NCBI RefSeq assembly: GCF_044324785.1 | Contig: NZ_CP172127.1 | Strand: one strand, 5' to 3' | DNA: 64,000 bases | Origin: Escherichia coli | GTDB taxonomy: Bacteria; Pseudomonadota; Gammaproteobacteria; Enterobacterales; Enterobacteriaceae | In this document: piece by piece, positions 29,401-32,400 of the stretch | Numbering within the stretch: the first letter of the stretch is position 1 | How the letters are laid out: each line of letters begins with the position of its first letter | Position numbers: made by a program

Positions 29401-32400
29401 CATTAGGTTTTCTATTAGTTGCTCCAGGACTGTTAAGCAAGCCTCGTCCGGTTTGCTTCATTGAGTTCTCCACTTTAGACTATTGGACTATCTTTCAACA
29501 TGGCATCGCCTTAGTATACCGCTGGTTTTCCGCTCATTGTTAATTTTCTCTTTCGTTCATTTCACTTAATTTTCAGTTTTTTTCCAAAAGTCAATATTCC
29601 CTTCTAATAAAATTTTTTCTATGGAATCTTCATTAATTTTATTATTAGAGCATATGACATTATCTTGAACGCCATATGACACCACCCCGTTTTTATCAAT
29701 ATAATATCTGTCTTTACCATCAACAATATAAATCCTAACATTTTTATCATCAAAATGGTAACACTCATTACTAGACCTGTTCAGTAACATTAATAACTTC
29801 TCACGATTTATCTGTAATAATTTTTGTGCACCATCTTTTATTGCAAAATTTTCAATTTTACTTTTAGTGACAGGGGAATATGTTTGGATGCGAAAAGGCA
29901 TCCTATAATGGAAAACATCAGCTATACAGCAAGATGAAAAAAATACGGAAATAAAATACAGACATACTTTCATACCATCTCCTAAACTGGTGATATATTA
30001 AAACATACCCAAAAGCAATATAAAAATGTTTAATATTTCATTCTTGCTGGCAAGCCCAACTCTTTACGAAATGGGTTTTCATATTTATCAACATTAGCCA
30101 TCGAGTCAGTTCCATCGTCTTTCATTCCCTTTGCATGCCCCATTTCATGCGCAAGAACCACACTCAACAGAGTGGGTTTCATGGCACATGCTTTGTTTTT
30201 TCCTTGATATACACATGAGCTATGGTCGTTATCAATATCAATGTAAAAACTATATTCAGTATCATCGTAGCATGTTTGGTTTATGCCTTTTCTTAATCCT
30301 CTAAATATATATTCATGCTCTGATGACTCTAATTCTTCTGTTATTTTATGTCCAAACTTTGTTTCTGCTACAGCTTTATATGCTTCTTTTAAAGTTTTTT
30401 GTGTACTTTCATCTCCCTGAAAAGACACTTTTAACCCTAATGGATCGAAACCAGATACCGGATTCAACGGATACTGATAAAAATTCCATCCCCCCTTAAG
30501 CCCAATCGGATCCTGAGTGATATACCGCCCCTGCAGCGGGTCATAATAGCGGTGGCGGTTGTAATACAGGCCGGACTCCTCATCATACTGCTGACCCGGC
30601 AGGCGGATGAGCTGCTGCAGCTGGTGCGGGTTCTCTTCATTCAGCAGGTTGCCCCATTCATCGTATTCTGCGCACCATTCTGTTGCCCCTTCCGTGCTGA
30701 CAAGCGCCAGCGGCAGGCCGCGATGGTCGCAGTGGTACAGGTGGATTTTTCGCGCCGGCGTGTACACCGGGTCCATCTGGTTTTGTATCTGCTCCACCGT
30801 CAGGCCGCACGATGCCAGCCAGCGGCGGCTTTCCTCACTCACCCGGTCAGTAAGGATTTCACTTTCCAGCCGGTCGAGCATCTGCACCAGCACCGGCGGG
30901 AACACCACACTGCCACCGTCTTCACCGCCGGACTGCTGAAGCGCATCCGCCAGGCTGCGGCGCTGCGTTTTCGCCAGCTCACCGGTGGCGGTTTCGACCC
31001 TGATGAGTGGCGTGAAGCTCCCCGGCTGATAAACCGTCTGGATGCGGGTTCTGTCGTTCTGTATCGTGGTCAGCCGGTCGCCGTCCCAGCCGTACCAGGT
31101 CACTTCCGGTTTCCGTGACAGCGACATCCAGCCCGTCAGGTCCCGTTCACGCCGCCACACCCGTTTTGCCACCCTGCGGCCCAGCGGGTCGTAAAGATAG
31201 CGACTTTCGACCAGCGGCTCTGCATATTGTGTCCGCGTGTAGTGCACCAGCCGGTGCCGGCTGTCGTAATGGTACTGGTGAGTCCGCTCATCATCCGTGC
31301 GGATAACCCCTTCCGGGATGAGGTCGGTTTTCTCTGTCAGCCTGCCGTGACGGTCATACCGGTAAAGATAGTGCGCGTCACGGGCGATACGGTTATCCGG
31401 CCACATGCTGAGGGTGCTGTCCGGGTGCAGCTCCGGGTCGGGCAGGCGGTTGCCTGCCGGGTCCGTGGCATACGGGATGCGGATATCAAGGTTCGCTGCC
31501 GTGGTGTGGACGCCGGTCAGCCTGCCGGTGTCGCTGTAGCTGTAACTCCGGGTCTGGCGCGGGCTGCTGATGCGGATGAGTTCGCCGTTGTCGTTCCAGG
31601 TGTAATCGCGGTCATACTGCAGGCTGTTCAGGTGCTGGCTCTGTAACTGCCCGGCAGGGGTGTAAGCGGTGGTGAGTTCATAACGGCCGAAGCTGCGCAG
31701 CGTTTCCCGGTGCAGGCGGTCGCGGGTGAAATCCACCAGCGGTGTGTCGCCGAGTTTCATGCCTGACAGCCAGCCGCTGCCGTAGGTCAGCCATTCCACG
31801 GCGGGCAGGCTGTCCGGTATACAGCGGTTCGCCAGTCCCTGCGCGTTGTAAGCGTGTCTGGTTTCATGCTGCCAGAGCAGTGCTTCCGTCTGCAGGTGAT
31901 GCACCGTCTGGCGCTCACCGGTCAGGCGGCCTTTCTCATCATACCCGTAATGCACCGTCACCCGGTGGCCTTCGCTGAGATGGCTGATGCCTGTCAGCCA
32001 GCCGCGTTCGTCATACTGCCACTGCTCTGCAGGTTCACCCTTCACGGTACGCTGCGTGATGCGGTCTGCTTCGTCATAGTGCCAGTGGGTGACCAGCCCC
32101 TCATCCTCGCTGCGGATAAGTTTGCCGGTCAGGTCGTGGTGATAACGCTGTGTGCGGCCGTCAAAGCCGGTTTCCTGTATCAGCCGGTCGAGTACATCGT
32201 AACGGAAGGTGGTGTGGCTGCCGTTTTCACTGGTCAGGCGGATGACCCGTCCGGCAGCATCGTATTCCATACTGCGCGTCAGACCGCCCTGCGTGGTACG
32301 GATGGCCTTTCCCCACGCATCGTACTGTGTCCCGTTTCTGCTGCCGTCCGGGGCAATGACGGCGGTCAGGTCACCGGCGGCGTTGTATTCATACCGCGTT

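What the first reader, a model, noticed from the sequence alone, without database searches (positions are those of the whole stretch)
29566..29973. Candidate cognate immunity gene with an export signal
A 135-aa AT-rich ORF starts 56 bp after the rhs stop, the usual position of an Rhs immunity gene. Its N-terminus (MKVCLYFISVFFSSCCIA) is hydrophobic and signal-peptide-like, which implies the immunity protein, and therefore the toxin target, is in the periplasm. That is unusual for Rhs toxins, many of which are cytoplasmic nucleases.
Basis: inference. Interest (0 to 1): 0.6.

Follow-up and report, generated by a model that had tools for sequence, protein, structure and literature searches.

The report
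Exported immunity gene for Rhs metallopeptidase
This small gene very probably encodes a protein exported to the periplasm that protects the E. coli cell from the zinc-protease toxin at the tip of the neighbouring Rhs protein; a Salmonella relative of the pair has already been described, so it is a solid but fairly ordinary find.

Summary
A 135-aa ORF lies on the minus strand at 29973..29566. It starts 56 bp after the rhs stop, has an AGGAG ribosome-binding site and is 28% G+C. Its N-terminus is a classic export signal.

It is a real gene: dN/dS against the E. albertii copy is 0.26.

It belongs to an uncurated family of small proteins with no Pfam or NCBIfam match. In that family an export signal, either a type I signal peptide or a lipobox, is followed by a conserved domain (YxxPFxxETYxPVT…FDxxxVR…YFIDxNGVV).

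- In 10 of 12 independent loci the family member sits directly after an Rhs/YD protein. That protein ends in a homologous HExxH…ENP…RxxY tip of the Tox-HopH1 / Peptidase_M91 type, with a fold like the BoNT light chain and GtgA.
- An eleventh locus has a decayed tip, and E. albertii has an orphan copy.
- Tips and downstream proteins co-diverge (r = 0.89).

The Salmonella Dublin pair SED_RS06335/SED_RS06340 is homologous (49% identity for the immunity protein). It has published competition-assay support as an effector/immunity pair.

Three things remain open: whether the signal is cleaved by signal peptidase I or II, whether toxin and immunity protein bind directly, and what the toxin cleaves. 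It is a new member of a known kind, of moderate interest.

The parts
30030..34172 (-). rhs gene (1380 aa). It has a PAAR-like N-terminus ([11 protein letters not shown]...), a YD-repeat shell, the core end ...DPLGL, and then the toxin tip.
   Evidence: ORF. RefSeq calls it 'RHS element core protein'. The core end matches NCBIfam RHS_core.
30033..30431 (-). C-terminal toxin tip: the 133 aa after DPLGL, a Tox-HopH1 / Peptidase_M91-like zinc endopeptidase.
30135..30149 (-). HEMGH zinc-binding and catalytic motif of the tip.
   Evidence: Read directly from the sequence. Invariant in 28 homologues.
29979..29983 (-). AGGAG Shine-Dalgarno sequence, 5 nt before the ATG of the immunity ORF.
   Evidence: Sequence. 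E. albertii has GGAGGAG at the same place.
29566..29973 (-). Candidate immunity gene (135 aa plus stop).
29920..29973 (-). Export signal, residues 1-18 (MKVCLYFISVFFSSCCIA). It offers a type I cleavage site CIA|D and an alternative weak lipobox FSS|C15.
   Evidence: Hydrophobicity and pattern analysis. Residues 1-19 have low pLDDT. UniProt names the 98%-identical A0A0D8WIV1 'Lipoprotein'. The signal is conserved across the family.
29569..29919 (-). Mature alpha/beta domain, residues 19-135. It carries the conserved motifs YxxPFxxQTYxPVT, FDDKNVR and YYIDKNGVV, and a Cys71/Cys108 pair.
   Evidence: Alignments A2 and A5. Model pLDDT 86.7, pTM 0.80. Co-occurrence of the two cysteines.
29577..29583 (-). 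A7 homopolymer four codons before the stop. The commoner E. coli allele has A6 and a different last four residues plus one extra (KKLKIK, against KKTEN here).
   Evidence: Sequence. P0001 compared with the window protein. The RefSeq CDS is 136 aa.

Best explanation
The ORF is the cognate immunity gene for the zinc-endopeptidase tip of the upstream Rhs protein.

**Proposed mechanism.**
- It is translated from its own ribosome-binding site.
- It is exported by the Sec pathway through an N-terminal signal. Most likely signal peptidase I cleaves the signal after Cys-Ile-Ala18. Alternatively Cys15 is lipidated.
- The exported part folds in the periplasm into a compact alpha/beta domain of about 115 aa, probably stabilised by a Cys71-Cys108 disulfide.
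- There it binds and blocks the Tox-HopH1/M91-type protease tip that sister cells inject, presumably through a type VI secretion system using the PAAR-like N-terminus of Rhs.
- It follows that the toxin acts in the cell envelope, most likely as a sequence-specific endopeptidase on a periplasmic or membrane-anchored protein.

**Shown here:** the gene is real and under purifying selection; the export signal is conserved across the family; the gene is strictly linked to, and co-diverges with, this tip family; the tip has a BoNT/GtgA-like zincin fold with a complete set of catalytic residues.

**Taken from the literature:** the Salmonella Dublin homologue pair behaves as an effector/immunity pair.

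**Inferred only:** direct binding, the site of toxin action, the delivery route and the substrate.
For: **Position and gene quality.** The ORF starts 56 bp after the rhs stop on the same strand and has an RBS. dN/dS against E. albertii is 0.26.

**Family.** Homologues are found by exhaustive HMMER search. Almost all full-length members carry a type I signal peptide or a lipobox directly before the conserved YxxPF..ETY core.

**Genomic context.** A homologous HExxH...ENP...RxxY tip lies immediately upstream in:
- Enterobacter;
- L005, L006 and L007;
- Citrobacter youngae and a Methylococcaceae MAG;
- Salmonella;
- L018 and L020.

In L019 the tip is a frameshifted pseudogene with HExxH changed to PExxH, while the downstream ORF is intact. 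E. albertii keeps an orphan copy. Keeping the gene after the toxin is lost is typical of immunity genes.

**Co-divergence.** r = 0.89, with 0 of 10000 permutations reaching it.

**Published experiment.** The S. Dublin knock-out primer matches loci L015-17 exactly at the tip/ORF junction. The repaired Salmonella protein is 49% identical to the window ORF (E 8e-42). That paper reports that SED_RS06340 protects against SED_RS06335 (PMC8867033).

**Precedent.** VgrG2b and PA0261 are a type VI metallopeptidase acting in the periplasm and its lipoprotein immunity protein (PMC6899460).
Against: - No signal-peptide predictor could be run.
- No binding or protection data exist for this allele.
- The published Salmonella effect is small (2.4-fold), and that immunity protein is a truncated 110-aa form.
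- One paper classes Tox-HopH1 effectors as anti-eukaryotic (PMC12994826), and a preprint assumes the toxin acts in the cytoplasm.
- The window shows no type VI secretion genes next to the rhs gene, so delivery is assumed.
- The Cys pair is largely restricted to one clade, so it is only weak evidence for a disulfide.
Confidence: 0.8

Rival explanations
1. The role is the same (periplasmic immunity), but the protein is a lipoprotein. Lgt and LspA would process it at FSS|C15, and the mature protein (CCIAD...) would be anchored to a membrane, probably the outer membrane because residue +2 is not Asp. This is a variant of the best explanation rather than a contradiction of it.
For: Cys15 satisfies the PROSITE-type lipobox rule. 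UniProt's name for the 98%-identical A0A0D8WIV1 is 'Lipoprotein'. Distant family members have canonical lipoboxes: FTGC, LGAC, LLSC and TLAC. The VgrG2b immunity protein PA0261 is a lipoprotein.
Against: Phe at position -3 is atypical. The closest homologues lack a usable lipobox: Enterobacter has SVYC, Citrobacter and Salmonella have PFFC, and P0010 has SSMC. They do keep C-x-A before the mature start, which fits a type I site.
Confidence: 0.35
2. The hydrophobic N-terminus is an uncleaved signal anchor. The protein would then be a bitopic inner-membrane protein with its domain in the periplasm.
For: TMHMM called '1 TM' for the S. Dublin homologue (PMC8867033). The charge pattern (K2 on the inside, D19 after the hydrophobic stretch) fits an N-in, C-out orientation.
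Against: The hydrophobic stretch is only 16 residues long. It ends with small residues at positions -3 and -1, as cleavable signals do. TMHMM commonly scores signal peptides as transmembrane helices (established knowledge).
Confidence: 0.1
3. The ORF is not an immunity gene. The M91 tip would be an anti-eukaryotic effector like NleD or HopH1, and the ORF an unrelated exported passenger or accessory protein.
For: The Pfam M91 family is founded on type III effectors that cleave host kinases. PMC12994826 lists Tox-HopH1 as anti-eukaryotic. Zhang et al. 2012 list no immunity family for Tox-HopH1.
Against: The ORF is tightly linked to the tip and co-diverges with it across Proteobacteria. Intact copies survive beside dead or absent toxins. 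The S. Dublin competition assay also argues against this.
Confidence: 0.06
4. The ORF is a chance open frame in AT-rich DNA and does not encode a protein.
For: The region is AT-rich, the ORF is short, and there is no Pfam or NCBIfam hit.
Against: dN/dS is 0.26 at dS 0.64. Homologues go down to 23% identity with conserved motifs. The model is confident, with pLDDT 86.7. There is an RBS, and RefSeq calls it a CDS.
Confidence: 0.01

Closest known systems
[quoted passage not shown] 2022, PMC8867033)
   Same: The architecture and gene order are the same. The Rhs N-terminus is the same ([10 protein letters not shown]). The tips are about 60% identical and the downstream proteins 49% identical. The downstream protein has a hydrophobic N-terminus. 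The pair was shown to contribute to interbacterial competition, with the downstream gene protecting.
   Different: The E. coli pair lies in the rhsA locus (yibF to mtlA), not in a type VI secretion island. The Salmonella gene is truncated: a nonsense codon after ...YEDNH in S. Dublin, and a TA-run frameshift in L015-17. The E. coli gene is full length. The paper described '1 TM' and guessed that the toxin is a peptidoglycan hydrolase.
E. coli STEC O22:H8 RhsA-M91 Ec154_02824 / Ec154_02823 (bioRxiv 10.1101/2024.03.05.583533)
   Same: This is an E. coli RhsA with a C-terminal M91 domain followed by a hypothetical protein proposed as its immunity protein. It is probably the same module.
   Different: That study found no homology for the downstream protein and assumed the toxin acts in the cytoplasm. 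I could not compare the sequences directly.
P. aeruginosa VgrG2b C-terminal metallopeptidase / PA0261 (Wood et al. 2019, PMC6899460)
   Same: A type VI HExxH metallopeptidase that is toxic only in the periplasm. It is neutralised by an exported immunity protein (a lipoprotein) that needs its signal peptide. The logic is the same as proposed here.
Tox-HopH1 / Peptidase_M91 (NleD, HopH1) and the structurally related BoNT light chains, GtgA and NleC
   Different: Those enzymes are delivered into eukaryotic cells and cleave host proteins. This one is a 133-aa minimal domain fused to an Rhs cage and paired with an exported bacterial immunity protein.
Tlde1 / Imm57 (Tox-LD-peptidase module), in the same window
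   Same: It is also an effector/immunity module directed at the periplasm within a polymorphic toxin locus, and its immunity protein also carries a signal peptide.
   Different: The toxin chemistry is unrelated (an L,D-transpeptidase-like enzyme). The immunity fold is unrelated (mostly alpha-helical Imm57).

Membership tests
Rhs / polymorphic-toxin cognate immunity gene | Small ORF immediately downstream of the toxin tip, on the same strand, sharing the tip's low G+C in contrast to the core. | tested here: met
   56-bp gap, same strand, RBS present. G+C is 28% for the ORF, 35% for the tip and 62% for the core.
Rhs / polymorphic-toxin cognate immunity gene | Co-occurs and co-varies with one toxin family in unrelated genomes. 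| tested here: met
   10 of 12 loci have a live homologous tip and 1 has a decayed tip. Mantel r = 0.89.
Rhs / polymorphic-toxin cognate immunity gene | Retained as an orphan when the toxin is lost. | tested here: met
   E. albertii has an orphan copy. L019 has an intact ORF beside a pseudogenised tip.
Rhs / polymorphic-toxin cognate immunity gene | Protects specifically against the cognate toxin and binds it. | not testable with these tools
   The only support comes from the S. Dublin homologue (PMC8867033). No complex prediction was possible.
Sec type I signal peptide | Basic n-region, hydrophobic h-region of 10-16 residues, small residues at -3 and -1, and a polar mature start. | tested here: met
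   K2; 16 uncharged residues with Kyte-Doolittle mean 2.55; C16-I17-A18 before D19. C-x-A is conserved in E. albertii, P0010, Citrobacter and Salmonella. These are rule-based checks only; SignalP was not available.
Bacterial lipoprotein (type II signal peptide) | Lipobox [LVI][ASTVI][GAS]C at the end of the h-region. | tested here: inconclusive
   FSS-C15 fails the strict pattern because of Phe at -3, but passes the looser PROSITE-type rule. UniProt auto-names the protein 'Lipoprotein'. The nearest homologues lack a lipobox, while distant ones have canonical lipoboxes.
Any curated immunity or other protein family (Pfam Imm*, NCBIfam, PADLOC, PDB) | Significant profile or fold match. | tested here: not met
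Tox-HopH1 / Peptidase_M91 (for the partner toxin tip) | HExxH plus a downstream [DE]N motif, and a zincin alpha+beta fold. | tested here: met
VgrG2b-type metallopeptidase / PA0261 immunity family | Sequence or fold homology to the VgrG2b C-terminal domain or to PA0261. | tested here: not met

The most novel reading that the evidence does not exclude
The M91/HopH1-type Rhs tips, so far guessed to be cytoplasmic, anti-eukaryotic or peptidoglycan hydrolases, would in fact be minimal BoNT/NleD-like site-specific endopeptidases. They would act in the bacterial periplasm on a protein substrate not yet identified. This ORF would then represent a widespread, unnamed family of exported metalloprotease-inhibitor (immunity) proteins whose fold has no solved relative.
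Probability: 0.5. Interest if true: 0.6.

Novelty: new member of a known kind. Interest (0 to 1): 0.38.

Why it matters
The literature gives three conflicting guesses for where M91/HopH1-tipped Rhs toxins act: the cytoplasm, the eukaryotic host, or peptidoglycan. The export signal conserved across this immunity family points instead to the bacterial envelope.

The results also define an uncurated immunity family that could be added to annotation resources. They further show that the published Salmonella 'immunity protein' is a truncated form of this family.

The full-length E. coli pair would be a clean system for two experiments: finding the envelope substrate of a BoNT-like protease, and solving a new protease-inhibitor fold.

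Tried and rejected
- **Family databases.** Pfam, NCBIfam and PADLOC scans of the ORF and of all family members gave no family.
- **P0007.** This protein joins the Rhs core end directly to the mature part of the ORF, which suggested the domain might itself be an Rhs cargo or toxin. I rejected that. It is a 238-bp contig, 91-95% identical in DNA to this locus, with dN/dS about 1 and changes at otherwise near-invariant residues (F27L, Y32H). It is a decayed deletion remnant.
- **Other checks.** Promoter and terminator scans showed nothing above shuffled expectation. A complex (multimer) prediction was not possible with the tools and caps. SignalP and LipoP were not available.

Full report
**1. 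What is in the sequence**

The window is the E. coli rhsA locus: selA, yibF, rhs, then yibH, yibI and mtlADR. Four features lie in a row on the minus strand.

| Feature | Coordinates (minus strand) | Size | Identity |
|---|---|---|---|
| rhs gene | 34172..30030 | 1380 aa | RHS element core protein |
| Target ORF | 29973..29566 | 135 aa | Subject of this report |
| Unannotated ORF | 29473..29198 | 91 aa | Weak Tlde1_dom match, E 1.3e-3 |
| Imm57 gene | 29193..28672 | 173 aa | Pfam Imm57, E 2e-44, own signal peptide |

The target ORF begins 56 bp after the rhs stop and has AGGAG 5 nt before its ATG. Its G+C is 28%. The toxin-coding end of rhs is 35% and the rhs core 62%.

**2. It is a real gene**

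- RefSeq annotates it as hypothetical protein WP_000861664.1.
- It occurs in 180 of 5426 complete E. coli genomes, always beside an Rhs gene.
- Against the E. albertii copy (71% amino-acid identity) dN/dS is 0.26 at dS 0.64. Against the Citrobacter and Enterobacter copies it is about 0.14.
- An AlphaFold2 model built on 24 family sequences is confident: pLDDT 86.7, pTM 0.80. Residues 1-19 are poorly defined. A beta-alpha-beta-alpha-beta3-alpha domain runs from residue 20.

**3. The family and its export signal**

No Pfam, NCBIfam or PADLOC model matches the ORF or any relative. An exhaustive HMMER search of 1.8 billion representative proteins found 32 hits. After setting aside two long repetitive proteins and some fragments, the rest are proteins of 110-175 aa.

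Their common core starts with [VM][YF]Y.PF..[EQ]TY.P[VI]T. It continues with FD...[VI]R and Y[FY][IV]D..G[VI].

In front of that core, nearly every full-length member has a basic residue and then a hydrophobic stretch.
- The stretch ends either in a type I site (SNAHA|F, VLA|N, ALA|Q, FSA|G and similar).
- Or it ends in a canonical lipobox (FTGC, LGAC, LLSC, TLAC).
- The exceptions are evident 5'-truncated gene calls.

The window protein has K2, then 16 uncharged residues, then C16-I17-A18|D19. The C-x-A motif before the mature start recurs in E. albertii (CLA|D), P0010, Citrobacter and Salmonella (all CDA|K). This favours a type I site.

FSS|C15 also satisfies the loose PROSITE lipoprotein rule, and UniProt names the 98%-identical A0A0D8WIV1 'Lipoprotein'. 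I could not run SignalP or LipoP, so the signal type stays open. In every reading the folded domain faces the periplasm.

Cys71 and Cys108 are present together in 7 sequences, singly in 1, and absent from 15. In the model they flank isolated beta-bridges at residues 72 and 109. That fits a periplasmic disulfide, but this is an inference.

**4. The partner toxin**

The 133 residues after DPLGL contain HEMGH. The tip alone scores marginally on Pfam Peptidase_M91 (i-E 1.3e-3). Most of its database relatives carry a precomputed PF14891 hit.

In 28 homologues H95, E96, H99, N113, E118, P120, R130 and Y133 are invariant. 'HExxH, [DE]N' is the signature that Zhang et al. 2012 give for Tox-HopH1, and they list no immunity family for it (PMC3482391).

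The residue set HExxH...E...RxxY mirrors the BoNT active site. That comparison rests on established knowledge of BoNT/A residues H223, E224, H227, E262, R363 and Y366. It is an inference, not a test. The tip therefore looks like an active, probably sequence-specific, zinc endopeptidase.

**5. Linkage between tip and ORF**

I examined the DNA around 12 independent family members.

| Locus | What lies directly upstream of the family member |
|---|---|
| Window (E. coli) | Live homologous tip |
| Enterobacter L002-4 | Live homologous tip |
| L005, L006, L007 (3 loci) | Live homologous tip |
| Citrobacter youngae L008 | Live homologous tip |
| Methylococcaceae MAG L009 | Live homologous tip |
| Salmonella L015-17 | Live homologous tip |
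| L018, L020 (2 loci) | Live homologous tip |
| L019 | Frameshifted tip, HExxH changed to PExxH; ORF intact |
| E. albertii L012/13 | Orphan; last gene of an rhs array |

The ten live tips all end ...HE.GHA..G..D.G...M.NV...ENP.R...G.P.R..Y.

In E. albertii the ORF follows a second, divergent M91-tipped Rhs fragment and that fragment's own signal-peptide protein. That protein may be a remote relative of the family (hhalign E 4.7e-4, probability 32%).

Pairwise identities of tips and of downstream proteins correlate at r = 0.89, and 0 of 10000 Mantel permutations reached that value. The downstream protein diverges faster than the tip.

In Uliginosibacterium a homologous tip is followed by an unrelated protein that also has a lipobox. 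Exported partners thus seem to be a property of this tip family.

**6. Link to published work**

Amaya et al. 2022 (PMC8867033) described SED_RS06335 in S. Dublin SPI-19 as PAAR-RHS-Peptidase_M91. Its downstream gene SED_RS06340 is 110 aa with '1 TM'. They showed that prey lacking both genes are outcompeted 2.4-fold, while prey lacking only the effector are not.

Their knock-out primer for the 3' end of SED_RS06335 matches Salmonella loci L015-17 exactly at the tip/ORF junction. The gene after it is a member of this family.
- In L015-17 it is split by a frameshift in a TA run.
- According to the second primer, in S. Dublin it is ended by a nonsense codon after ...IYEDNH.
- Read through, it is 49% identical to the window ORF (E 8e-42).

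A 2024 preprint on STEC O22:H8 noted an RhsA-M91 with a downstream hypothetical protein. It found no homologue for that protein and assumed the toxin acts in the cytoplasm. A 2026 Salmonella survey lists Tox-HopH1 as anti-eukaryotic. Wood et al. 2019 gave the functional precedent: the VgrG2b metallopeptidase is toxic only in the periplasm and is blocked by an exported lipoprotein. I found no sequence or fold link between VgrG2b and this tip.

**7. Interpretation**

The best-supported model (confidence 0.8) has four parts.
- The ORF is the cognate immunity protein of the M91/HopH1-type Rhs tip.
- It is exported.
- It neutralises the incoming protease in the periplasm.
- The toxin therefore acts on an envelope target.

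Direct binding, the delivery route and the substrate are inferred. The main uncertainty inside the model is whether the protein is soluble or lipid-anchored. The alternatives, an anti-eukaryotic effector with an unrelated passenger ORF or a chance ORF, are poorly supported.

**8. Novelty and score**

This is a new member of a known kind. The module type is published, with modest experimental support, in Salmonella, and has been noticed in E. coli.

This analysis adds five points:
- the downstream protein defines a widespread, uncurated family;
- an export signal is a family trait;
- the tip has a BoNT/GtgA-like fold;
- the published Salmonella immunity protein is a truncated form.

Interest is moderate (0.38). 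It would rise if the periplasmic substrate were identified.

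Noticed in passing
window 28672-29473 (-): There is a second toxin/immunity module directed at the periplasm. An unannotated 91-aa ORF has the SEGCI motif of Tlde1-type L,D-transpeptidase effectors (Pfam Tlde1_dom, E 1.3e-3). It is followed by a 173-aa Imm57 protein with its own signal peptide (MTRLLTIVLFFSISANA|V). The Tlde1 ORF is truncated at its N-terminus compared with the 135-aa gene of strain NA3664. About 85% of the 889-bp stretch searched (28672-29560), roughly 28674-29428, is present in 3683 of 5426 E. coli genomes, against 180 for the target ORF.
   Followed up: partly
window 29519-29537 (-): A 19-nt copy of the rhs start (ATGAGCGGAAAACCAGCGG, coding MSGKPA) lies 29 bp downstream of the target ORF's stop. 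It has one mismatch to the real start at 34154-34172 and runs into a stop after 8 codons. It is probably a scar marking the end of the imported rhs-tip and immunity cassette. Similarity to other E. coli genomes resumes near 29428, inside the Tlde1 gene.
   Followed up: partly
window 29577-29583 (-): An A7 homopolymer lies four codons before the stop. Most E. coli copies (a cluster of 263 sequences, and RefSeq's 136-aa protein) have A6 and end ...KKLKIK. The window allele ends ...KKTEN, closer to E. albertii's ...KNAENK, so the window allele looks ancestral.
   Followed up: partly
L014 (E. coli draft contig JBOBGT010000316.1, 238 bp; protein P0007): The Rhs core end (...NPVQYIDPLGL) is fused directly to the mature part of the immunity ORF (ADMFHYGMPLRIQTH...). 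The toxin tip and the signal peptide are both missing. DNA identity to the window is 91-95%, dN/dS is about 1, and near-invariant residues are changed. It looks like a decaying deletion derivative.
   Followed up: yes
L015-L017 (Salmonella enterica) 5736-6204: The Salmonella member of the family is split into two called ORFs (105 and 67 aa) by a frameshift in a TA dinucleotide run. The S. Dublin allele described in the literature as a 110-aa immunity protein ends at a nonsense codon after ...YEDNH. The published immunity protein is therefore a truncated form that lacks the YFIDxxGVV strand and the C-terminal helix.
   Followed up: partly
L013 (E. albertii) 4268-6417: This rhs array contains an orphan Rhs fragment with a divergent M91-type tip (HEFAH; Pfam i-E 3.1e-4), then a 149-aa signal-peptide protein, then the orphan copy of the target family. 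The 149-aa protein may be a remote homologue of the family (hhalign E 4.7e-4, probability 32%).
   Followed up: partly
L019 (metagenome contig) 1700-2947: Here the HopH1-type tip is a pseudogene with frameshifts and HExxH changed to PExxH, next to an intact family member (P0026). The toxin has been lost and the immunity gene kept.
   Followed up: partly
L010 (Uliginosibacterium gangwonense) 2864-3280: A homologous HopH1-type tip is followed by a 138-aa protein with a canonical lipobox (SSGC). This protein does not resemble the family. It suggests a second, unrelated exported immunity family for the same toxin type.
   Followed up: no
window 61868-61910 (+): This is the only Rfam hit above gathering score in the window: ES036 (CssrF) sRNA, 38.9 bits against a threshold of 37.6. 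There are no tRNA genes in the window.
   Followed up: no
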